From assembly GCA_965224085.1 (NCBI GenBank), contig CBDCYI010000004.1:896001-960000 (forward strand): a DNA stretch of 64,000 nt. The letters run 5' to 3'. Origin of the DNA: Candidatus Marinacidobacterales bacterium. GTDB taxonomy: Bacteria > Acidobacteriota > Vicinamibacteria > Marinacidobacterales > SMYC01. The translations under genes and the position numbers were made by a program. The first letter of the stretch is position 1. The number at the start of each line of letters is the position of its first letter. This document shows positions 4,915 through 26,911 of this stretch, piece by piece. The notes below the pieces were generated by a model. The model saw nothing but the letters and a program-made list of their open reading frames with translations, was not told where the DNA came from and made no database searches.

Positions 4915-6667
4915 GAAGGCGAAGTTGTACGCCGTGGGTAGTCTTAGAGAGTCCTGCGAGGTAGAACGCTTGGGATTTATTGGATACGCGGCCCGCCGAA
5001 ACGTAACTCCGGGTCGTGACGTCGTCCGGATCTTCATTAACTGCGCGCTCACGGATGCGCCCACCGTCGGCCAACGACAACGCTTGAACGACCCCGCGGG
5101 CCTTTCCCCCCCAGACGATATCCGCTTTCTCCATGCCATCGACGTCCTTTTCGAGGAGCGCCGATGTCGATTCACGGGACTCGATACGCTGTCAGCTATT
5201 CGTAAGTTCCACCGCTTCATGGGTGCGCTCGGTGCGCGGGCACGCGAGATGGGGCAGGGCCACGACTGGCCATTCGAGTCGACAAGGAACTTGTTGGAGA
5301 CGCTCGCACGTATCAAGCACTCCCGCGACTACAGTTCGATCGCTCAGTCCCCTCAACTCCGCAGATAAACCGACACGAGGCTCTCGAACGGTCAGGCATG
5401 ACGCAGCCGCGAAAGTAGCGGTTACCGCCGCCTCAATCGTCTCCATTCTCGAATCCAACGCCGAACCGCGCCAGCTCAACGCCCGACGCGCCAATTCTGC
5501 GGACCGAGATCACGGGTTCAGTAAGAGGAAGCCAGCTGCCCCCTTCGTCTTCCCACCGTGCCAAGGCCGAGCGTAGGTCGGGGGCGTCTTTCGCTTCCTG
5601 CTCGCTCGCGGGCGCCGCCGTGCTCTCGCGTTCGAGCTTTAGCCGGAAGTTCCCGGTTTAGGCCAGACGTAATGTATTGAACGCGTGGAGTTTTTCATCA
5701 GGGAAGGTTTCCCGGCACTGGGAACAAACCGAGCAGTTGCATTGCGCGTTGTTGTGTTGAGTTGGCTTCGGTCACCATCTGGAATGGTGGAGCGGTCGGG
5801 TCGGCTTTGAGTTGGCAAAGGTTGAGACTGCGGGTAGCAAGCTCGGCAAGAAGCGTGGGGAAACTGTGAATAGGTAATCCGTCAGATGTGCGACGGACGC
5901 TCTTTTTGTTTTTGGCCGAAGTCGAGGGCAGAGCTGGCAAGACGGGGTCTCGGGTCTCGCGGTCGGCGTCAAGTTGCTCGTCGACGAAAAGTAGTGGAGC
6001 AAGGGCCTTTTTCATGTGCCATTGCACATAGTAGGCGAGCAAGCACAAGAAGATGTGTGCCCGCACGCGTTGGGCATCGCGATGGCGGATGGGTCGTACT
6101 AACAGGTCGATGCCCTTCAAACAACGAAAGGCTTGTTCAACCTGAGAGAGCCGCTTGTAGCTGCGCACGGTGTCCTCGGCCGAGAGATGCTCAAGCGGCT
6201 CGCTGGTGCGGATTACGTAGATGCCGTCGCGTTCCGATTCTCGGCGAATGCTTTCCTCGCGTCTGCTGTAGCTAAAAAGGCTATCTTCGATCTTCAGTGT
6301 GAAGTGCTTGCCCACTTTGTAATGGTTGAGCACCTTTCCGACCTTCTTGCCAATTTCAGCTTTGTCCAAAGGAGTTTTCGTTCGCCGGGCAACCTGTCGG
6401 CGGATCTTGTCGAACTTGGCCTCGGTCGCTTCAAGCAGGGCCTGGCGCTTCCTTCGCCTCTCTTCGGCCAGCAGAGGGTTGTAGCAAGCAATCAGTCGCT
6501 CACCGGGAAAATCAATAGAAGTGATCTCCGCCAGGTTTTTTTGGTCGAACAGCGACAGCTGCAAACACTCCGTGTCCAGTAGTTTGCGAATCGCTGTCGA
6601 ACGCAAGGCTGAGATCCAGCCAAGTCCTGGGTATTGCCTTAGAGCCTTAATCTGGGCAATAATAGAC

Positions 6668-6696
6668 TTGACTAACCTAGCCTCCTAGCATACCAT
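6668..6696 (+). promoter_or_regulatory. Inward-facing sigma70-like promoter with -35 inside the IR
   Basis: TTGACT-N17-TACCAT; the same geometry occurs at 24471-24499. Confidence 0.7.
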
Positions 6697-6702
6697 CCCT
6701 CC

Positions 6703-6846
6703 CGTCACAATGAACCGCGTGTGGCTCGACCATCGGGTCACTCGCTAAATACAAGACCTCCTTCCCAGGGGGAAATAGGCGGGATCCTGCATGCCAACCA
6801 CATGCGGTTCGTTGTGACGACTGGCCCGGTGACCAATTCTCCGGGC
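6703..6846 (+). ncRNA. Putative structured RNA or 5' leader, copy 1 (family not recognised)
   Basis: 22-bp closing stem 6703-6724/6798-6819 with two G-U pairs, inner stem gggtc-a-ctcgct/ggcggg-atcc, then a gcccgg..ccgggc hairpin; covaries with the copy at 24506. Confidence 0.7.
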
Positions 6847-6869
6847 TCCAATCCACGAAAGGATGGCCC

Positions 6870-7361
6870 ATGCGGAGAGCAACATTGTTTCTACTTGTAG
6901 GTGTACTGGCTGGCTGTGGCGATGAGGGCGGGAGTACACCAACGTCCCCAGCGCCGGCGCCGACCACAACTCGTCAACCAAGGCCACCACGAAAGGCGAT
7001 CATCCATCTTGACGCGAATATTCCAGCCGTTCGCGTTACCGACCAGGGAAACGGCGTGATCCTAGATATAAATCTCGTAGAGCTAGGAGGCGTAGGCGCA
7101 ACAATCAACTTTATTAGACTAGATGTTTTTAGAGCGACAGGCTTTTTTGAAGAACGCCAGGAGTTATCAGGTGCCCGTCTTAGACGCGAACTTATTGGAC
7201 GAACTCGCGTTGAAGCCAATTCGCGAAGACGTTTTTCCGTCATTTTTTGGTTTAGGGCCACGGTGAAAAGAGGAAGGGGATTAGAAGTCACCGTTGGGCT
7301 TACCGATGACAACGGAAACGTGTTTGAGCTAAGTGAAGCGTTTGTTTTTACTAGAGCCTGA
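6870..7361 (+). CDS. Passenger lipoprotein of unknown function
   Basis: Signal and lipobox MRRATLFLLVGVLAG-C, Pro/Thr linker, beta-rich C-terminal region; SD gaaagga at 6857. Confidence 0.8.
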   Translation: MRRATLFLLVGVLAGCGDEGGSTPTSPAPAPTTTRQPRPPRKAIIHLDANIPAVRVTDQGNGVILDINLVELGGVGATINFIRLDVFRATGFFEERQELSGARLRRELIGRTRVEANSRRRFSVIFWFRATVKRGRGLEVTVGLTDDNGNVFELSEAFVFTRA

Positions 7362-7455
7362 AGTGGAGGTCATTGCAATCAAGGCCGGAGGCTTCCGGCT
7401 AGGCGGTGGGCTTCGGTTCTGATATAGACTAGAGCCTGAAAAAGGAGGAAAGGCT

Positions 7456-7815
7456 GTGACCGAAACCAAGTGGCTAACCGCCATACACTATCTCTTTACC
7501 GAATCCAACGGGAAAATCGTTGCACATTGCTTGGATTTGGACATCATTTCTAGCGGGAGCACGAGAGAAGAAGCCCAAGAGAAGCTAAATGCCTGCGTGA
7601 AGCAACAGATTATGTCATGCTACCAGGAGAAGAATTACAGCCAATTGGTTTTTCAAGCTCCTGACAGCTATTGGAGAGAGTTTGATGAAGCCGTAGATCT
7701 GCCCTCATCTGTTCTCGAAATCGAGTTCCAAGGACCAACAACAACTAGACTGCACGCCCAATCGTTTGTGTGCCCTGGGCAATTGAAGTTAGAGGCCGCT
7801 TTGTGCGGTGCCTGA
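7456..7815 (+). CDS. HicB-like antitoxin-fold protein
   Basis: IVAHCLDLDIISSGSTREEAQEKL matches the HicB N-terminal pattern; strong SD aaggagg. Confidence 0.65.
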   Translation: MTETKWLTAIHYLFTESNGKIVAHCLDLDIISSGSTREEAQEKLNACVKQQIMSCYQEKNYSQLVFQAPDSYWREFDEAVDLPSSVLEIEFQGPTTTRLHAQSFVCPGQLKLEAALCGA

Positions 7816-8039
7816 AAGATGTCCTGGCACCATTGGAAGAAAAAAGGGGCGTCAGGATCATCGGAACATGGAAACTAAAATGCCGTAATGGAATCACGCT
7901 GGCACACCCACACAGCATTTTCCCTTATGGCGGACCAAGGTATCAAATAGACACCACCAAAAACGAAAACCCAGAAATTACAACAGTCGAGATAGAGGCG
8001 TTGGAGCGCAGGTTTGGAAAGTTCTGGATGAAGGTATGA
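7803..8039 (+). CDS. Small protein, possible HicA-like toxin
   Basis: GTG start overlaps the end of the HicB-like gene; 78 aa; His-containing AHPHS motif and a C-terminal helix. Weak resemblance only. Confidence 0.4.
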   Translation: MRCLKDVLAPLEEKRGVRIIGTWKLKCRNGITLAHPHSIFPYGGPRYQIDTTKNENPEITTVEIEALERRFGKFWMKV

Positions 8040-8189
8040 TTTTCTAAAAAAAGATCATAGGAAGAATCTTGTAGCTGTTCGTTCGGCGAACAGCTTAGGC
8101 GGTATCGGTAAAGCTTCCAAAGGAGAAGCTATAAGCCCATGAGAAAACCGATGATCATCCCCGAGCGCTACCTGGCTGGCACCCCCCTA

Positions 8190-8232
8190 ACCACAAGATG
8201 TAGTGATCAAGCCGACCACAAGATGTTGTGGT
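8190..8232. promoter_or_regulatory. Tandem NrdR-box-like palindromes
   Basis: accacaagatgtagtga (8190) and accacaagatgttgtggt (8215) fit CACwAnATnTwGTG, 25 bp apart. Confidence 0.5.
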
Positions 8233-8241
8233 TAGTGGAAT

Positions 8242-8269
8242 GCCTGTCAAGGTTCACTTATAATCCCCC
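8242..8269 (-). repeat. Orphan internal IS1595-type terminal repeat
   Basis: Reverse complement gggggattataagtgaaccttgacaggc is 23/28 identical to the left IR of the element at 24452. Confidence 0.8.
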
Positions 8270-8281
8270 AAGGAAAGAACC

Positions 8282-8488
8282 ATGCTAAGGAAACCAGAAC
8301 TCCACGAGGGCGACGCCGCGCTAAACCGCTTCACCAAGGCCCTGAAGACGATCTTCTCAATACCGCGGAAGGACGCAGAGCGGATTCGGATGGAGGCCCG
8401 TACTCCGATGGCTAGACGGGTGTCTCCTGACCAATCAGCTCCAGATACGTCAACCGCTTCCCCACCGCCTGACGAAGAGCTCGAGTAA
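8282..8488 (+). CDS. Small protein convergent with and overlapping the IS1595 transposase 3' end
   Basis: SD aaggaaag; MLRKPELHEGDAALNRFTKALKTIFSIPRK is predicted helical; positionally equivalent to ORF 25350-25541. Confidence 0.55.
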   Translation: MLRKPELHEGDAALNRFTKALKTIFSIPRKDAERIRMEARTPMARRVSPDQSAPDTSTASPPPDEELE

Positions 8489-9344
8489 AGCGCTCATCGT
8501 CCGTTCCGTGCCGCTCGTTGAAGCGGTACGCCTGCTCGTCCAGGTAGCGTGACAGGTGGAAGGGCTCAACGCTCACGTAGGTTCCATGGATCGCCCGTTT
8601 CAGCAGACTCCAGAAGTTCTCAATGCCGTTGGTGTGGACACGGCCATTGACGTAGGTTATGGCATGGTTCACTGTCCCGTGAGCGTATTCACGCTCGAGG
8701 CCATTGTAGGATGCTAGCGCGTCAGAGTAGAGCGCCGAGCCTGCAGCCACGTGCTTTTTGACTTCCCGTTGGAGAGTCTTCTTCTTCCGGTTGCTGACAA
8801 CCATGGTGCGAACGATGCCCCCTCGCTCCAGCATCCCAAGAACGGCCGTCTTGTCGGATGGACCTCGCCCTGTGATTCGCCGCCGCCGCTTGTCGGCGTG
8901 CATATTCCTGGCCTTCCCACCGATGAACGTCTCATCAACCTCGACCTCGCCAACCAGTTTCTCGAATGAACCGGAATGGAGCGCGAGTCGGATACGGTGT
9001 CCCATAAACCAAGCCGTTTTCTGACAGACGCCCACCGCGCGGTGAATCTCGTAGCTGCTCACACCGTTCTTGCAGTTCACCACTAGCCAGAGGACGGGGA
9101 GCCACTTGTCGAGGCCCAAGGGGGAATCCTCAAAGATGGTCCCGGTCTTCAGAGAAAACTGTCGCCGCTGGTGTTCCTCTGAACACTTCCATCGGCGCAC
9201 CCTGGCGAGCCAGTGAACTCTCTTGGACCCGCATGTGGGGCAGGTGACGCCCTCCGGCCATCGGAGTCCGATAAGGAAATCACGGCAACGGTCGAAATCC
9301 GAGAAGTATCTGATGGCCTCCAATAAAGTCTTTGGCTGCTTCAT
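8412..9344 (-). CDS. IS1595-family (ISXO2-like) DDE transposase
   Basis: Zn ribbon CPTCG..WKC, HTH KTAWFMGHRIR, VEVDETFIGG, YSDALASY, HTNGIENFWSLLKR and YLDEQAYRFN; promoter TTGACT-N17-TATCCT from the right IR. Confidence 0.96.
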   Translation of the reverse strand: MKQPKTLLEAIRYFSDFDRCRDFLIGLRWPEGVTCPTCGSKRVHWLARVRRWKCSEEHQRRQFSLKTGTIFEDSPLGLDKWLPVLWLVVNCKNGVSSYEIHRAVGVCQKTAWFMGHRIRLALHSGSFEKLVGEVEVDETFIGGKARNMHADKRRRRITGRGPSDKTAVLGMLERGGIVRTMVVSNRKKKTLQREVKKHVAAGSALYSDALASYNGLEREYAHGTVNHAITYVNGRVHTNGIENFWSLLKRAIHGTYVSVEPFHLSRYLDEQAYRFNERHGTDDERFTRALRQAVGKRLTYLELIGQETPV

Positions 9345-10511
9345 GTTCAAAGGATAGCATTCGATGCTAGGTTAGTCAAGTCTATTATTGCCTTAATCTG
9401 AGTCTGAGTGAGCAAGCCCCGGTCACCAACCAGCACCACCTGTTGAAGCTCAAAACGCTCACGAAGCTTTTGTACTTGATCCGGCAGTGTCGTCGGATCC
9501 CCTGTGTTCCCCGGGTAGACCTCCACGGCCACGGGACGTCCTTCGTGGTCCGTTAACACTCCATAGACAACGATGGGTTTGCCCTTTTTACCATCTCGGC
9601 CGTAGCCGAAAAGAGCCAGTGGACAGGTGCGTCCTTCATAGTAGCTACTGCTCACATCGTAAAGCACCTGTGCACCCTCGGAAAGGTGTCGACTCGCCAG
9701 CTTCTTTTCGATCCGAGACTGGCGCTGGATCAACCAATCCATTGCCGCATAGAGATCATCTTCGTCCGCATCGACCACGCCGAGCTCTTGCGCCAGCGTT
9801 GTCGTGTGCCACAGTCGTGTCGTGCCCAACTTCGAGCTGGGATGAATGAGTTGCTCGGCAATCATGGCGATAACCAGATCGCGTTCGCGACATCGTTTCG
9901 ACGCGATGAGTCTATCGAGTTCCAGTTGGTGGATGGTGCCGAGCACTGCCTCGACATGGCCGTGGGGCAGTGTCCGCTGCACGACGAACACATCCGACGG
10001 AGCCATCAAGGGCTCGTCTCTCAGTAAGCGTCGCAGGGCTTCGACCTTGGCCTTGGGCCACTCCGTCAGATTGGCGATGGTGCGTTTTCGGATGCGCTTT
10101 CCCTCTCGCCAACCCTCGCGCAACAAGATGGCTGGCCGGGAGTTCCGGTTGGGAACGATGTCGACATACATGGCAACAATAATACACATAAAAAGCTTAA
10201 TATCAATATAAAACAGATCAATACATGGGAAAACTTGTGGGGCCACATTTTCTCGTTTCCCACTTAGAATCAATGAATTACACCCCGTTCTAGGTGTTTC
10301 TGTTAGGGGAACTTCTGGTTAGAGGGCGTTTCTGCGCCTGCCCGGAGCTCGGTGTCGTTCGCCCAAGCATAAACCGATCCTGCATCAGCGCCTTTCTGAG
10401 GGTCGGCTTGACCCGCTCCGCTCCTGCAGAACACGTAGTCGATCATGACGGTTCGGGCACGCGGTAGGGGTCAGCGACCCGCCGTCTGGCTCTACCACCG
10501 ATTCTGCGTGA

Positions 10512-23667: not shown

Positions 23668-24456
23668 ATGAGTAAAATCAACGCTATCGTACTGATCGCG
23701 TCTCTATCGGCAGGCACGGGCTCCGCGACGCCCATCATTCACGAGGTTTTCTACGACGCAATCGGCGCCGACACGAGCTCCGTATTCACGGAGCTTTATG
23801 GAAGCCCCGGGACCTCTTTCGACGGCTGGTCGCTCGTCGGCGTAAACGGCGCGAACGGAATGCCCTATCGCACCGTCGATCTCACGGGTGCCGTTATCCC
23901 AAGCGACCGGGTTCTGGTGCTCGCGACGGCGTCGGCCATAGGTAGCCTTCTCGCTGTGCGCGACTTCGTGGCGAACGTCGACTGGCAGAACGGCCCGGAC
24001 GCCGTGCTGCTTTATGACGCGTTTGGCGGGCTCGCGGACGCACTTCAATATGGTCACGCCGGCACCCATAACCGCGGCGCAGGAGCCCCGGCAGCGGACC
24101 CCCCGGCCGGTCTCGGGCTTACACGTGACGCACTGAGCACCGACACCGGCGACAACGCGACGGATTTCTTCGCGCTGCCGCCCACACCCGGTTTCCGCGC
24201 CGCCCCCACCCGCGTCTCCGAGCCGAACGTCTTCGGACTCGTCCTCCTGGCCGCGTGGGCCACCGCGCCGTCGTCGCCGTCCAGGGAGCGTCGAGTGAGC
24301 GGGTCCCTTCAATTGGCTGCCTTGGAGCCGCCAATACGATTCCGAATCGCGGCCCTCTCTTCGGGCGTAATCGGACGATCGGGTTGTGAAGTCACACGCG
24401 TGTGGATGGCGCGAAACTCCTCAACCAACTCCGGACTGTCCATAAAAAAAGGGTGA
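23668..24456 (+). CDS. Secreted lamin-tail-domain protein with a degenerate PEP-CTERM-like tail (3' end probably read-through)
   Basis: Signal, IIHEVFYDAIGAD..FTELYG, WQNGPDAVLL, DTGDNATDF..PTPG, then VSEP-hydrophobic-RERR. Confidence 0.7.
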   Translation: MSKINAIVLIASLSAGTGSATPIIHEVFYDAIGADTSSVFTELYGSPGTSFDGWSLVGVNGANGMPYRTVDLTGAVIPSDRVLVLATASAIGSLLAVRDFVANVDWQNGPDAVLLYDAFGGLADALQYGHAGTHNRGAGAPAADPPAGLGLTRDALSTDTGDNATDFFALPPTPGFRAAPTRVSEPNVFGLVLLAAWATAPSSPSRERRVSGSLQLAALEPPIRFRIAALSSGVIGRSGCEVTRVWMARNSSTNSGLSIKKG

Positions 24457-24470
24457 ATTATAAGTAAACC

Positions 24471-24499
24471 TTGACAAGGACTGCCCATTAGAATACCCT
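24471..24499 (+). promoter_or_regulatory. Inward-facing sigma70-like promoter with -35 inside the IR
   Basis: TTGACA-N17-TACCCT; the first stem G is 8 nt downstream, as in element A. Confidence 0.68.
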
Positions 24500-24505
24500 T
24501 CCCAC

Positions 24506-24647
24506 CGTCACACGAACGCGTGCGGCTCAACTATCGGGTCACTCGCTGAATACAATACCCTCCCCATAGGGAAATAGGCGAGATCCTGCTTGCTACCGCA
24601 TGCGTTTCGTGTGACGACTGGCCCGGTGACCAATTCACCGGGCCAGT
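24506..24647 (+). ncRNA. Putative structured RNA or 5' leader, copy 2
   Basis: Closing stem 24506-24525/24596-24616, inner stem gggtc-a-ctcgct/ggcgag-atcc, and a perfect 13-bp hairpin actggcccggtga-ccaat-tcaccgggccagt. Confidence 0.7.
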
Positions 24648-24677
24648 AATCCACGAAAGGACGCTTCGAGAATGCTC

Positions 24678-24914
24678 ATGCGGAGATCAGCATTGTTTCT
24701 ACTTATAGGTGTATTGGCTGGCTGTGGCGATGAGGGCGATAGTACACCAACGTCCCCAGCGCCGGCACCAACCACAACTCGTCAACCAACGCCAAGGCCA
24801 GCGCCAGCACCCAGACGCCCAGCCGATATCAGCTTGGCCGGTGAATACGAATGCACTAGTGAACAACCACCGCCTAGAAGGCGGTGGCTTCAAGGGCTGT
24901 CAATTGGAAATTGA
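24678..24914 (+). pseudogene. Passenger lipoprotein truncated by an IS200 fragment
   Basis: MRRSALFLLIGVLAGCGDEGDSTPTSPAPAPTTTRQP is nearly identical to the N-terminus of 6870-7361, then diverges; IS200 sequence starts at ~24859. Confidence 0.8.
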
Positions 24915-25110
24915 CTGTCGTCGTGAAGAGGCTCGCCATCCTGGGAGTCTATGTACTCCTTTACCATCTCGTCCGTTATGCTTCCTGAACTCACCGCCAG
25001 ATATCCTCGGGCCCAGAAGTGCCGGCCCCAAAACTTCTTCCTCAGGTGAGCAAACTCCTGAAGGAGTACTCGGGAGCTTATTCCTTTTAGCCACTGCACG
25101 ATCGTACTCA
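24859..25110 (-). mobile_element. tnpA: IS200 right-end fragment (3' half of tnpA)
   Basis: IVQWLKGISS..FWGRHFWARGYLAVSSGSITDEMVKEYI; hairpin ccaccgcc-tagaa-ggcggtgg; ends in TTCAC. Confidence 0.88.
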
Positions 25111-25112
25111 GG

Positions 25113-25352
25113 TTCGACGAGAAGTACGGGTTCAGGCAAGGAGAGATAATCGACGACATCGAAAAAGTGTCGGGTAAAATCGACGGGCTGTCGTCAAAGC
25201 TCGACGCGATGGGTCACCGGTTCAGCACCCTTGAGCACAATTTTGGAGTATTCGGTCAGAAGCTAGACCTCATTGGGCCGTAGGACCGAGAAGATGGATA
25301 AGCGGCTCGAACGCGTAGAGGACCGGGTCGGTAACATCAAGGTGAAGCTATG
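25113..25352 (+). pseudogene. 3' remnant of a coiled-coil passenger gene
   Basis: IIDDIEKVSGKIDGLSSKLDAMGHRFSTLE..., frameshift, ..KMDKRLERVEDRVGNIKVKL*; its stop overlaps the next ATG. Confidence 0.5.
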
Positions 25353-25541
25353 AGACCACCGATGATCATCCCCGAGCGCGACCTGGCCGGCGCCACGCCG
25401 GAGAGATTGGCCCGCGCGTTGCTGAGTCCCTTACGACCTCGCCATCGAACTGAGCCCGTTCTTGGCGACGAGGTCACGGTAGAGAAGTCGGTGTCCGACA
25501 AGCCGAGCGACGGTGTCGAGCATTTGGTCGAGAGTTCCTAG
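25350..25541 (+). CDS. Small protein convergent with and overlapping the IS1595 transposase 3' end
   Basis: MRPPMIIPERDLAGATPERLARALL; a homologous relic MRKPMIIPERYLAGTP sits at 8139. Confidence 0.6.
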   Translation: MRPPMIIPERDLAGATPERLARALLSPLRPRHRTEPVLGDEVTVEKSVSDKPSDGVEHLVESS

Positions 25542-26411
25542 GTCGCGGATGTTGTGCTTCTCAGCGAACTCATTAACGTAGCGTTGTAAGTGCTTGGGGC
25601 TCATCTTGTGGAACGCCCCCTTGTGCGCCCGCTTGAGCATCGACCAGAAGCTCTCAATCCCGTTGGTGTGCACCATTCCGTTGACGTACTCTTTGACGCT
25701 GTGCTTCACCGTCTCGTGATTGGGTAGACCGACATAGCCTCTGTGGTCGTCGGTGTAGAGCTTCGCGCTAGGATCGACATTCTTCGCGACGAAGCCTTGG
25801 AGCGTCGGTTGGTCGGTGTTGCCGATGACCTCGGCGCTGACACGGTTCGTCCGGCGGTCCTTCGCGCCGATGACGGCCGTCTTCCCTGCGGATCCTCGGC
25901 CCTTAATAGCCTGCTCGCGCTTGTGGGCGTGCTGCATGTTGCGAGCCTTCCCGCCGAAGAAGGTTTCGTCTACCTCGACAGGCCCGGCGAACGATTTGCC
26001 GTTAGGACCGCTCCACGCTTCTCGAATCCGATGGAGCATGAACCAAGCCGCGGCCTGTGAGACGCCGATGTCTCGGTGGAGCTTCATGCTCGAGACGCCT
26101 TTGAGACTAGTCAAGCAGAGGTAGATGGCGATAACCCATTTGCGGAGCGCGATCTTAGAATGGGCAATAGGGGTGCCCGTGCGAACGCTGAAGTAGCTCC
26201 GGCAGGTGGAGCACCAGTAGGGCATCGGCTTTTCGTTCGGGACTTCGCTGGTGCTGAGGCTACCGCAATGTCCGCAGCACCGAGTGCCATGCCAGATTGC
26301 AGCCTCGAACCATTTGGTTGCCGCTTCATCGGTCGGGAACATGTCCATGAGCTGAACAACGGTTATGCCTTCCCGGTGCCCTCGCCCTGGGGAGTTGTAT
26401 CGCGTCATCAT
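25431..26411 (-). CDS. IS1595-family DDE transposase
   Basis: CGHCGS..YWCSTCRSYFSVRTGT, AAWFMLHRIR, VEVDETFFGG, YTDDHRGY and HTNGIESFWSMLKR; promoter TTGACA-N17-TATTCT from the right IR. Confidence 0.96.
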   Translation of the reverse strand: MMTRYNSPGRGHREGITVVQLMDMFPTDEAATKWFEAAIWHGTRCCGHCGSLSTSEVPNEKPMPYWCSTCRSYFSVRTGTPIAHSKIALRKWVIAIYLCLTSLKGVSSMKLHRDIGVSQAAAWFMLHRIREAWSGPNGKSFAGPVEVDETFFGGKARNMQHAHKREQAIKGRGSAGKTAVIGAKDRRTNRVSAEVIGNTDQPTLQGFVAKNVDPSAKLYTDDHRGYVGLPNHETVKHSVKEYVNGMVHTNGIESFWSMLKRAHKGAFHKMSPKHLQRYVNEFAEKHNIRDLGTLDQMLDTVARLVGHRLLYRDLVAKNGLSSMARS

Positions 26412-26911
26412 GATCGTAGAATACACGATCACGGGTGCCTTGTCAATCGTTTCTTATAATTCCCCATAAAAGAGCTCATCGCCTTGGTCGTGAATGTGGA
26501 GATTCGTTGTCCCGCCCCTCTGGAAAGTTTGCTCCACTAGAATAGAGCCCATCGTCCCAGTCTTCGGCGACGCCTTAACCACAATGCCGTTCAGCAAGGC
26601 TTCGCCGCCTCCTACTTTGAGAATAAACCCTTTGGCGGGAGTCGACGACGGTGACGTCGGTTCTGGCTCGCGAGCAGCCTGCGTGGCAGGCTCTTCGCTA
26701 CACGCTGCAGAGCCAAAAAAAGCGGCTGCGATTAGCATGTGTCGCATCATTCGTCTTCCTCCTCAGAGTGCTGAAATCGCGTTGGTAGCCACCGGGCATC
26801 GAGGCTCAACGTCGCGTGGGAAGTTTTCAGCGCGCGTCGCCTCCGAGTGAACTTGACCGGCTCGGAATTGTCGACTGTGTCAAGGAGGACCAAATCGTTA
26901 GGGAAGCGTCC

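What the first reader, a model, noticed from the sequence alone, without database searches (positions are those of the whole stretch)
6668..6846. Conserved, covarying ~140-nt structured RNA with a predicted promoter in the terminal repeat of two different IS1595 elements
Seen: the same non-coding segment lies just inside the transposase-distal IR of element A (6703-6846) and element B (24506-24647), although their IRs differ and their transposases are divergent. It folds into a 20-22-bp closing stem, an internal loop, an ~11-bp inner stem, an A/C-rich apical region with a small hairpin, and a second hairpin. Differences between the copies preserve pairing: U-A to C-G (gtgTgg/ccAcat vs gtgCgg/ccGcat), loss of one A-U pair from both arms, U-G to C-G, and U-G to U-A in the inner stem. 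Most other changes fall in loops. G-U wobbles work only on the + strand, which favours an RNA over a DNA cruciform. In both elements TTGAC(T/A)-N17-TACC(A/C)T, with the -35 inside the IR, ends 8 nt before the first stem G, so the predicted 5' end is the stem base. Known: IS1595 members carry passenger genes and non-coding DNA, and IS110/IS1111 and IS200/IS605 encode functional ncRNAs. I know of no RNA described for IS1595, and the segment does not match riboswitch, SRP, 6S or tRNA patterns I recognise. Inference: an undescribed IS1595-associated sRNA or cis-regulatory leader that controls passengers or transposition, or binds the transposase.
Basis: partly seen in the sequence, partly recalled or inferred. 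Interest (0 to 1): 0.9.

Follow-up and report, generated by a model that had tools for sequence, protein, structure and literature searches.

The report
Portable leader RNA on IS1595 elements
A real, covarying structured RNA of about 140 nt lies between a promoter in the end of two IS1595 transposons and their cargo gene; it is a distant, longer relative of the sRNA-Xcc1 family, whose function is unknown and which rides on mobile elements in many bacteria.

Summary
Window 6703-6847 and 24506-24647 are two copies of one structured RNA. Each lies 18-28 nt inside the transposase-distal inverted repeat of an IS1595 element; element A has an 8-bp target duplication. Homologues occur in 14 of 55 genomes of the order. 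The long stem shows compensatory changes at 21 of 22 pairs, and G-U outnumbers A-C 164 to 20, so an RNA of the + strand is under selection.

The RNA is not specific to IS1595: 28 of 48 loci have no such transposase within 4.5 kb. It is a promoter-proximal 5' leader. An ORF starting downstream of it was called in 36 of 48 loci (25 unrelated clusters), mostly lipoproteins or membrane proteins.

It is also not a new kind. Its core (P1, P2, P3 and P4, with AAUACAA and GAAUA loops) is the fold of Rfam sRNA-Xcc1. It scores below Rfam's threshold (22-33 bits against 53). It is linked to that family by reciprocal single best hits and by intermediate sequences.

The long stem S1 overlaps P4 and crosses P1, and all three covary, which points to a conformational switch or a pseudoknot.

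My best reading is a cis-acting regulatory leader of cargo genes that IS1595 elements captured in this order. The trigger is unknown.

The parts
6647..6654 (.). Target-site duplication TTAATCTG, left copy, of element A
   Evidence: Read. The identical 8 nt lie at 9393-9400.
6655..6684 (+). Transposase-distal inverted repeat of IS1595 element A; holds the -35 hexamer TTGACT (6668-6673)
   Evidence: 30 nt, 97% complementary to 9363-9392; promoter-like TTGACT-17-TACCAT.
6691..6696 (+). Predicted -10 hexamer TACCAT, 6 nt before the first stem base (6703)
   Evidence: A -10-like hexamer lies at the same distance in homologues (upstream sequences printed).
6703..6724 (+). S1 5' arm (long closing stem)
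   Evidence: MFE; 21 of 22 pairs have compensatory changes.
6732..6740 (+). P1 5' strand AUCGGGUCA; pairs with 6822-6830. This is the closing helix of the sRNA-Xcc1 core and crosses S1.
   Evidence: First pair AU 10 / GC 7 / GU 2 in an alignment not fitted to any structure.
6741..6783 (+). P2 (6741-6746 / 6778-6783) enclosing the conserved internal loop (AAAUACAAGA, AAAUA) and the P3 hairpin (6757-6772)
   Evidence: P2 99-100% paired, P3 with compensatory changes at 3-4 of 4 pairs. Aligned to the RF02221 consensus.
6787..6807 (+). P4 local hairpin CUGCAUG...CAUGCGG; its 3' arm is also the upper part of the S1 3' arm
   Evidence: 3 of 5 pairs compensatory, 87% paired.
6798..6819 (+). S1 3' arm
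   Evidence: (I3).
6822..6847 (+). P1 3' strand UGGCCCGGU (6822-6830), which alternatively forms hairpin P5 (6823-6829 / 6841-6847)
6848..6872 (+). Small hairpin covering the Shine-Dalgarno-like AAGGA (6859-6863), and the ATG (6870-6872)
   Evidence: MFE; sequence.
6870..7361 (+). Cargo ORF, 163 aa, with a lipoprotein-type N-terminus (…LLVGVLAGC…)
   Evidence: No Pfam family. Weakly related to the cargo of L095 and L100.
8412..9350 (-). IS1595-family transposase of element A, convergent with the RNA and cargo
   Evidence: DDE_Tnp_IS1595 7.1e-45, Zn_ribbon_IS1595 1.5e-9.
9363..9392 (-). Transposase-proximal inverted repeat of element A
24452..24479 (+). Transposase-distal inverted repeat of element B, with -35 TTGACA (24470-24475)
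   Evidence: 28 nt, 82%. 8 further copies of this left end lie in the genome.
24506..24647 (+). RNA copy B: S1, P1 (24533-24541 / 24619-24627), P2, P3, P4, and a 13-bp P5 hairpin (24617-24647)
   Evidence: (I4).
24672..24914 (+). Cargo ORF of element B, cut short by a foreign repeat fragment at 24858-25113
25431..26432 (-). IS1595-family transposase of element B
   Evidence: DDE_Tnp_IS1595 2.8e-40.
26438..26465 (-). Transposase-proximal inverted repeat of element B

Best explanation
The segment is the 5' leader of the mRNA of the IS element's cargo gene. It is transcribed from a sigma-70-type promoter whose -35 hexamer lies in the inverted repeat.

It is a divergent 'long-form' member of the wider sRNA-Xcc1 family. 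That family has a core of helix P1 closing a junction with P2-P3 (conserved AAUACAA / GAAUA internal loop) and P4. Here the core is preceded by a 5' arm that pairs with the P4 3' arm and the junction behind it, giving the 20-22-bp stem S1.

S1 overlaps P4. P1 crosses S1. The P1 3' strand can instead form hairpin P5 with downstream sequence. So the RNA can adopt at least two folds.

I infer that switching between the folds sets how much cargo protein is made, by changing ribosome access or transcript elongation or stability just upstream of the Shine-Dalgarno sequence. I also infer that the promoter-leader-ORF unit is a portable cassette which IS1595 elements picked up repeatedly in this bacterial order.

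Shown: the structure, its covariation, its strand, its relation to sRNA-Xcc1, its position before ORFs, and its carriage inside transposed IS1595 units.
Inferred: transcription, action in cis, the switch and its output. The trigger is unknown.
For: Structure and strand.
- MFE z -4.7 and -8.3.
- On 34 distinct homologues, 93.9% of 1221 cells are paired, against 33-45% for slid partners. 31 of 41 pairs carry compensatory changes.
- G-U 164 against A-C 20.
- On a MAFFT alignment not fitted to any structure (19 sequences), the core fold is 94.9% paired, with 10 of 24 pairs compensatory.
- The first pair of P1, which was absent from the model used to collect the sequences, reads GC 13 / AU 9 / GU 2 / other 2.
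- P1 is fully paired in 16 of 29 distinct sequences, has one mismatch in 12 and two in 1.

Relation to sRNA-Xcc1.
- The RF02221 alignment covers the whole model and pairs exactly P1, P2, P3 and P4.
- All 7 RF02221 matches at E<=10 in the own genome are this RNA.
- Model R2, built only from this order, has a single match in the 5.5-Mb EDL933 chromosome. That match is the locus RF02221 scores at 69.1 bits.
- Intermediates exist. L141 (another Acidobacteriota family) scores 57 bits on RF02221 and 36.9 on R2. L142 scores 55.1 on RF02221 and has an S1-like arm.

Leader position.
- An ORF preceded by an SD-like motif and starting within 114 nt after P1 (mostly 20-60 nt) was called in 36 of 48 loci, falling into 25 unrelated clusters.
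- In E. coli EDL933 the bona fide family member ends 40 nt before the ant start codon.
- In Xanthomonas it lies upstream of symE with its own orientation (passages of bioRxiv 10.1101/2025.06.18.660453).
- A promoter-like site lies at a fixed distance.

Mobility.
- 8-bp target duplication around element A.
- Element B is present in several copies of >=99% identity.
- 8 elements show the same IR-RNA-cargo-transposase-IR layout.
- 20 of 48 loci have an IS1595 transposase within 4.5 kb. The own genome has only 17 such transposase loci in 6.87 Mb.

Switch.
- S1 and P4 share a strand, and both covary.
- P5 forms in nearly all sequences.
Against: - No expression data for this organism: no RNA run is listed for it, so transcription and the 5' end are predictions.
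- Both window copies fail Rfam's gathering score (22 and 24.8 bits against 53). In a scan of 17 related loci, only 1 gave any RF02221 match at E<=1.
- R2's hit on the E. coli RNA has E 0.7 genome-wide, and R1's has 13 bits. The homology rests on reciprocity, shared architecture and intermediates, not on one significant score.
- The proposed output is weakly supported. The predicted unpaired probability of the translation start region is 0.53 with P1b free and 0.45 with P1b locked. It is higher in only 16 of 24 sequences, and some start codons are uncertain.
- In nearest-neighbour energies the S1 state is favoured by 4.7-33 kcal/mol over a nested fold with P1 forced, in 12 of 12 sequences. So a simple equilibrium switch is unlikely without a factor, a kinetic route or a pseudoknot.
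- The cargo genes share no function. That is unlike classical metabolite riboswitches.
- In Xanthomonas the family member was reported as a discrete ~88-nt RNA (PMC2996969, passages).
Confidence: 0.55

Rival explanations
1. It is a trans-acting small RNA, as sRNA-Xcc1 was first described. It would be released by termination or processing after P1/P5 and would base-pair with mRNAs elsewhere. The downstream ORF would merely be a neighbour or be read through.
For: The Xanthomonas member is a discrete ~88-100-nt species by Northern and RACE (PMC2996969, passages). In EHEC it is abundant with low ribosome coverage (PMC5331693, table passage). Xylella carries 7 copies, reported as expressed (PMC12189769, passages).
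Against: - No U-tract follows P1 or P5 in the window copies. The only terminator-like site the scan flagged in either leader is the P4 hairpin in copy A.
- The ORF start follows within 114 nt (mostly 20-60 nt) in the 36 of 48 loci where an ORF was called.
- The most conserved bases are buried in helices and an internal loop, not in an exposed seed.
- An accumulating short leader is also what an attenuated cis-regulator gives.
Confidence: 0.15
2. It is a constitutive 5' structure without a switch. A 5'-terminal long hairpin would protect the cargo mRNA from 5'-end-dependent decay and insulate its translation signals from whatever sequence the cassette lands in.
For: - S1 starts a few nt from the predicted 5' end and is by far the most stable fold.
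- The cargo is unrelated in function, which fits a generic expression module.
- The difference in start-site accessibility between the states is small.
Against: A stabilising hairpin needs no conserved internal loops. Here AAUACAA / GAAUA and the P1 strands are nearly invariant from Acidobacteriota to Enterobacterales. P1 and P4, which compete with or cross S1, also covary. Many family members lack S1 altogether: 57 of 75 by the criterion.
Confidence: 0.15
3. It serves the IS itself. It could be a transposase-binding or guide-like RNA (as in IS110 or IS200/IS605), an antisense regulator of the convergent transposase, or a DNA hairpin used in transposition.
For: - Fixed position next to the IR in 8 elements.
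- Strong enrichment near IS1595 transposases: 20 of 48 loci, against 17 transposase loci in 6.87 Mb of the own genome.
- Transcription is convergent with the transposase gene in 13 of 13 within-element cases.
Against: - 28 of 48 loci have no IS1595 transposase within 4.5 kb.
- Only 2 of 80 wider-family loci have one, and both in another arrangement.
- No complementarity to IRs, flanks or the transposase 5' mRNA (10 of 10 tests |z| < 2).
- The G-U to A-C ratio of 164:20 argues against a DNA cruciform.
- IS1595 transposases are DDE enzymes that, to my knowledge, need no RNA (recalled).
Confidence: 0.05

Closest known systems
sRNA-Xcc1 (Rfam RF02221), first found in Xanthomonas campestris
   Same: - Same core: a 9-bp P1, P2, the internal loop AAUACAA.ACC / GGRAAUA, a P3 hairpin, P4, and a U-rich junction before the P1 3' strand.
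- Carried on mobile elements (integron cassettes, prophage). Directly upstream of a gene, with its own promoter.
- Multi-copy in some genomes.
   Different: - Scores 22-33 bits against the gathering score of 53.
- P1 here reads AUCGGGUCA/UGGCCCGGU, not the GUCGGGAGG/CCUCCCGAC of the proteobacterial members.
- Has the extra 5' arm forming S1. No such arm is visible in the E. coli member, and S1 is not part of the 87-position Rfam model. S1 is, however, present in 18 of 75 other family members, including one that passes Rfam's threshold (L142).
- No U-tract after P1.
- The cargo here is mostly envelope proteins, not SymE or Ant.
IS1595-family insertion sequences with passenger genes ('transporter IS'); mobile insertion cassettes
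   Same: IRs, an 8-bp target duplication, a DDE_Tnp_IS1595 + zinc-ribbon transposase and a passenger ORF. Locus L113 is an IR-flanked RNA+ORF unit without a transposase inside.
   Different: I found no description of a structured leader RNA as a recurrent part of the passenger module. This rests on search listings only. The Siguier et al. 2009 paper on IS1595 is recalled, not read.
Leader-derived immunity RNAs of phages P1/P7 (c4) and P4 (CI)
   Same: A structured RNA right after the promoter and upstream of an antirepressor-type gene. Parts of it are complementary to sequences elsewhere in the same leader. In a Xylella prophage region, sRNA-Xcc1, isrK and C4 matches lie within about 400 nt of each other (table passage of PMC12189769).
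   Different: No sequence or model match to C4 (RF01695) at any threshold used. The mechanism of c4 and CI is recalled, not tested here.
Riboswitches and other cis-regulatory leaders
   Same: A conserved, covarying core with invariant unpaired bases. A variable downstream region in which the closing-helix strand has an alternative partner.
   Different: The regulated genes share no pathway (25 unrelated clusters). No ligand is known. No terminator or clear anti-SD sequence in this lineage.
IS-encoded functional RNAs (IS110/IS1111 bridge or seeker RNA; IS200/IS605 omega RNA)
   Same: A non-coding structured RNA encoded inside an insertion sequence next to its end.
   Different: Those RNAs pair with the element's ends or targets and are tied to their recombinase or nuclease. 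This RNA shows neither.

Membership tests
sRNA-Xcc1 (Rfam RF02221) | Covariance-model score at or above the curated gathering score (53 bits) | tested here: not met
   Window copy A 22 bits, copy B 24.8 bits. Best relative in the order 32.7 bits. In a scan of 17 related loci, only 1 gave a match at E<=1.
sRNA-Xcc1 (Rfam RF02221) | Core secondary structure: P1 closing P2-P3 and P4, with the AAUACAA / GAAUA internal loop | tested here: met
   Full-length model alignment. Same layout read in the 69-bit E. coli member. Pair counts.
sRNA-Xcc1 (Rfam RF02221) | Homology shown by reciprocal search and by intermediates | tested here: met
   7 of 7 RF02221 matches in the own genome are this RNA. R2's single match in the EDL933 chromosome is the bona fide member. 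L141 and L142 pass RF02221; L141 also matches R2 (36.9 bits). Caveat: the individual E-values are weak (0.16 to 0.7 genome-wide).
sRNA-Xcc1 (Rfam RF02221) | A discrete ~88-nt transcript (Northern, RACE) | not testable with these tools
   No RNA run is listed for this organism. There is no U-tract after P1.
IS1595 family insertion sequence with passenger gene | DDE_Tnp_IS1595 transposase with N-terminal zinc ribbon, terminal IRs, 8-bp target duplication | tested here: met
   for element A. For element B, the IRs are 82% complementary, the duplication matches at 7 of 8 with the register uncertain by 1 nt, and the zinc-ribbon match is below Pfam's cut-off (21.2 bits against 25.4).
IS-encoded guide/bridge RNA (IS110, IS200/IS605 type) | RNA obligatorily linked to the element's recombinase | tested here: not met
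   28 of 48 loci lack an IS1595 transposase within 4.5 kb. 78 of 80 wider-family loci lack one in the 8 kb held.
IS-encoded guide/bridge RNA (IS110, IS200/IS605 type) | Complementarity of RNA loops to the element's ends or target | tested here: not met
   RNAduplex against IRs plus flanks, both strands and both ends, and against the transposase 5' mRNA: |z| < 2 in 10 of 10 tests.
Riboswitch | Conserved aptamer-like core with covariation and invariant unpaired bases | tested here: met
Riboswitch | Expression platform whose pairing excludes the aptamer's closing helix | tested here: inconclusive
   The P1 3' strand alternatively forms P5 in nearly all sequences. The predicted effect on the start site is small: 0.53 against 0.45, higher in 16 of 24.
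Riboswitch | Regulated genes share a pathway that points to a ligand | tested here: not met
   25 unrelated cargo clusters. Pfam finds an above-threshold family in 4 of 20 proteins tested: DUF4875 twice, CsgG and bPH_1.

The most novel reading that the evidence does not exclude
The greater sRNA-Xcc1 family, including this long form, may be an orphan sensor RNA that mobile elements of many phyla place in front of their cargo. The elements include IS1595 transporter-IS, integron cassettes, prophages and genomic islands. The cargo includes envelope proteins here, and SymE toxins and antirepressors elsewhere.

The invariant P2/P3 internal loop would bind a ubiquitous cellular signal or a host factor. 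The S1/P4/P1/P5 competition would convert that signal into on/off expression. This would give mobile DNA a common, portable way to time cargo expression, and in prophages to time induction, according to the state of the host.
Probability: 0.25. Interest if true: 0.8.

Novelty: new variant of a known kind. Interest (0 to 1): 0.55.

Why it matters
sRNA-Xcc1 is annotated in thousands of genomes as a 'trans-acting virulence-related sRNA', yet its mechanism is unknown.

This case and its relatives show four things:
- The family is much wider than the Rfam model captures. Only 4 of 18 architecture-positive loci tested pass the threshold.
- It is nearly always a promoter-proximal leader of a gene on a mobile element.
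- It has a long form with a competing 20-25-bp stem.
- Insertion sequences can carry it as a ready-made promoter-leader-cargo cassette.

Together these turn a vague sRNA annotation into a testable cis-regulatory hypothesis. They also give IS1595 'passenger genes' a defined expression module. If the core proves to be a sensor, it would link cargo expression on transposons, integrons and prophages to one signal.

Tried and rejected
- **Rfam at gathering threshold, whole window:** no match.
- **Similarity searches of the RNA against the plasmid and phage collections (distant mode):** no match.
- **Expression:** no RNA holder is listed for window 6640-7400. Read laying was therefore not used, because contigs cannot show transcript ends.
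- **Guide, antisense or transposase-related pairing:** rejected.
- **DNA cruciform:** rejected on the G-U / A-C asymmetry.
- **Simple thermodynamic switch:** the nested P1 fold is 4.7-33 kcal/mol less stable than the S1 fold. I therefore leave open a pseudoknot, a kinetic switch or a factor-dependent switch.
- **P4 plus the following U-rich run as an intrinsic terminator:** only copy A is flagged by the simple scan. Not pursued.
- **Translational control model:** only weak support.
- **The 256-bp insert in element B as a MITE:** rejected. It is the end piece of a longer repeat with about 37 copies and has no terminal inverted repeats.
- **Literature:**
  - The 2011 RNA Biology paper on sRNA-Xcc1 is not held, so what I say about it comes from other papers' citations and from recall.
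  - I saw only search listings for 'IS1595 + passenger' and 'IS1595 + non-coding RNA', and none suggests an IS1595-linked RNA.
  - Supplementary files were not consulted; they may hold coordinates of sRNA-Xcc1 copies that bear on gene context.
- **Circularity caveat:** Their hits with R2 (60 matches at E<=0.01 in 77 sources) are therefore partly circular.
- **Rows dropped:**
  - One search used 29 distinct sequences. 16 of 48 loci failed one of my three anchor patterns, and exact duplicates were merged.
  - One search used 24 (one skipped for distance, four without a called ORF).
  - One search used 75 of 81 pattern matches (too close to a locus end, no P1b-like anchor, or duplicates).
  - Alignment A5 used only the 19 short-P3 ('subtype 1') sequences of those 29.
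Full report
**What is there.** Window 6655-9392 is an IS1595-family element (A).
- It has 30-nt inverted repeats that are 97% complementary and an 8-bp target duplication, TTAATCTG, at 6647-6654 and 9393-9400.
- Its transposase with DDE_Tnp_IS1595 and zinc-ribbon domains lies on the minus strand at 8412-9350.
- A 163-aa lipoprotein-like ORF lies on the plus strand at 6870-7361.

Window 24452-26465 is a second element (B). It has different inverted repeats (28 nt, 82%) and a transposase about 40% identical to that of A.

In both elements, the stretch between the transposase-distal repeat and the cargo ORF is the same structured segment. The A/B similarity starts at the -35 hexamer, runs through the segment and the first ~40 codons of the ORF, and then stops.

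Both copies fold far better than shuffled sequence (z -4.7 and -8.3). A sigma-70-like TTGACT-N17-TACCAT lies at 6668-6696. The B equivalent is visible in the sequence but misses the scan's criteria.

**More than chance, and an RNA.** The own genome holds 11 blastn matches: one A, one A-like copy in another context, and several near-identical B copies.

More distant homologues were found as follows.

| Search | Genomes with a match |
|---|---|
| blastn, same family | 5 of 19 |
| covariance model R1, same order | 14 of 55 |
| covariance model R1, sample of the phylum | 5 of 151 |

All three counts include the own genome.

On 34 distinct sequences:
- S1 shows changes on both sides at 21 of 22 pairs.
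- The whole structure is 93.9% paired, against 33-45% when partners are slid.

That alignment was fitted to R1, which leans towards S1. But the same holds for helices that R1 did not contain, and for a MAFFT alignment that was not fitted to any structure.

G-U pairs outnumber A-C 164 to 20 among 1221 cells. Selection therefore acts on an RNA of the plus strand, not on a DNA cruciform.

**What it is related to.** No Rfam family reaches its gathering score in the window. A permissive scan gave sRNA-Xcc1 (RF02221) at 22 bits, and 32.7 bits in a relative. That alignment spans the whole 87-position model. It pairs AUCGGGUCA-type sequence (6732-6740) with UGGCCCGGU-type sequence (6822-6830) as helix P1. 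This pairing crosses S1 and had not been part of my model.

Three results make this more than a chance resemblance:
- P1's first pair covaries: GC 13, AU 9, GU 2, other 2; AU 10, GC 7, GU 2. P1 is fully paired in 16 of 29 distinct sequences and has one mismatch in 12.
- In the whole 6.87-Mb genome, RF02221 has 7 matches at E<=10, and all 7 are copies of this RNA.
- Model R2 was built only from 19 sequences of this order with the P1-P2-P3-P4 fold. It has one single match in the 5.5-Mb chromosome of E. coli EDL933. That match is exactly the locus RF02221 scores at 69.1 bits.

**Evidence against the relation.**
- Each of these scores is weak on its own: 22-33 bits against a threshold of 53; E 0.7 for R2; 13 bits for R1.
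- In a scan of 17 related loci, only one gave an RF02221 match at E<=1.

- Of 18 of these loci tested, only 4 pass Rfam's threshold, although all show the same layout.
- 60 matches to R2 at E<=0.01 were found in 77 of these loci. This is partly circular, because the loci were chosen by motif.

I conclude that the RNA is a divergent member of a family much wider than the Rfam model.

**The long form.** The E. coli member reads P1, P2, AAUACAACACCC-GCAA-GGGGAAUA, P4, junction, P1, and has no upstream partner for the P4 region.

The window's RNA has an extra 5' arm that pairs with the P4 3' arm and the junction behind it; this is S1. This long form is not peculiar to Acidobacteriota. 18 of 75 wider-family sequences have an upstream arm that pairs with the same region (dG <= -15 kcal/mol and z <= -3). 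One of them is L142 from Stenotrophomonas, which passes Rfam's threshold.

S1 and P4 share a strand, and both covary: P4 has 3 of 5 pairs compensatory, and its local hairpins are -6 to -12 kcal/mol.

P1 crosses S1. The P1 3' strand can instead form hairpin P5 with downstream sequence in nearly all members.

Nearest-neighbour energies favour the S1/P5 state by 4.7-33 kcal/mol over a nested P1 fold. The P1 state therefore needs a pseudoknot, a co-transcriptional route or a partner.

**Context.** I fetched 46 further loci and put them in one orientation together with the two window copies.

*Upstream.* There is always a promoter-like site a few nt before the RNA.

*Downstream.* An ORF preceded by an SD-like motif and starting within 114 nt after P1 (mostly 20-60 nt) was called in 36 of 48 loci.
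- These ORFs fall into 25 unrelated clusters.
- Most begin with a signal peptide, a lipobox or a membrane segment.
- Pfam gives an above-threshold family in only 4 of 20 tested: DUF4875 twice, CsgG and bPH_1.

The RNA is thus a leader shared by unrelated cargo. This matches what is reported for sRNA-Xcc1: it lies upstream of symE in Xanthomonas integron cassettes and of an ORF6N protein in APSE phages. Here I found it 40 nt upstream of ant in an EDL933 prophage.

**Link to IS1595.**
- 20 of 48 loci have an IS1595 transposase within 4.5 kb; one of these is only a 32-aa fragment. 13 lie downstream and convergent.
- 8 elements in 5 genomes have the RNA 18-28 nt inside an inverted repeat whose partner lies beyond the transposase.
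- The own genome has only 17 such transposase loci, so the link is far above chance.
- It is not obligatory, however. 28 of 48 loci lack the transposase, and among the 80 wider-family loci only 2 have one, both in another arrangement.
- The RNA shows no complementarity to the repeats, the flanks or the transposase mRNA.

IS1595 elements of this order have therefore captured a promoter-leader-cargo cassette. The inner part of the repeat supplies or coincides with the -35 hexamer.

**Mechanism.**
- Shown: a plus-strand RNA structure under selection; a promoter-like site; a position directly before diverse ORFs; mutually exclusive or knotted helices that all covary.
- Inferred: the RNA acts in cis on its own cargo mRNA, and the S1/P5 fold and the P1/P4 fold differ in how well the message is translated or extended.

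The predicted effect on the start region is small (0.53 against 0.45 unpaired; 16 of 24). The output therefore remains open, and the trigger is unknown. Rivals are a trans-acting sRNA, a static stabilising 5' structure, and a function for the IS itself.

**Verdict.** It is wrong about 'no known family' and about specificity for IS1595. This is a new long-form variant of a known but mechanistically unexplained RNA family. It is of moderate interest in itself and of higher interest if the family proves to be a sensor.

Noticed in passing
window 24858-25113: A 256-bp piece inside element B interrupts the cargo ORF. It is 99.6-100% identical to the end of a longer repeat that has 37 near-full matches in the genome. 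35 of these continue into the same flank (CCTGGTGTGGTCGG...), so the piece is a fragment of another multi-copy element. It has no terminal inverted repeats.
   Followed up: partly
window 8173-8269: Inside element A, between cargo and transposase, lie a 36-nt imperfect palindrome (8173-8208 / 8214-8249) and an inward-facing copy of a B-type IS1595 repeat (8242-8269, 5 mismatches). This suggests a nested or rearranged element. A similar palindrome precedes the RNA at the A-like copy G000:C5:1980196-1980349 and at L104.
   Followed up: no
window 8139-8183 and 25350-25394: A 45-nt stretch, 89% identical, lies downstream of the transposase stop codon in both elements, which are otherwise divergent. 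It begins with ATG on the + strand. Function unknown.
   Followed up: no
L091, L092, L094-L097, L115, L117 (upstream 60 nt of the RNA): In copies without an IS1595 end, a GC-rich palindrome (ACTTGCGCGCGCAAGT and variants) sits between the -35-like and -10-like hexamers of the RNA's promoter. This looks like an operator for a repressor.
   Followed up: no
L015, L017, L018, L022 (genomes G013, G017) and L113: At four loci, the 3' half of the RNA (from GGGGAAUAGGCG onward) is fused to the sequence GGGCCGAGTTTTGGCACAGGACG. At L113 the same 23-mer forms an inverted-repeat pair 2.3 kb apart around an RNA + 346-aa ORF unit, with no transposase inside; this resembles a mobile insertion cassette.
   Followed up: partly
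L140-L219 (wider family): In proteobacterial members the P1 strands read GUCGGGAGG / CCUCCCGAC. These resemble a Shine-Dalgarno and an anti-Shine-Dalgarno sequence, and a real AGGAGG-ATG follows 30-60 nt later. This suggests translational control by P1 in those lineages. The Acidobacterial P1 lacks this feature.
   Followed up: no
L138 / NZ_CP008957.1 1394619-1394707 (-): The bona fide sRNA-Xcc1 of E. coli EDL933 (69.1 bits) ends 40 nt before the start of a prophage antirepressor (Ant) gene. A published table lists this RNA as abundant with low ribosome coverage (PMC5331693).
   Followed up: partly
window 5698-6606 (-): A 302-aa ORF with only the C-terminal part of a DDE_Tnp_1 domain (E 3.6e-6) abuts element A on its left. 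It may be the gene into which, or next to which, element A inserted.
   Followed up: no
G000:C5:1980196-1980349 (-) (L002/L136): An RNA copy 95% identical to A has a different upstream region and a different, unrelated 79-aa membrane ORF downstream. Similarity ends within P5. The leader seems to be a joint at which cargo is exchanged.
   Followed up: partly
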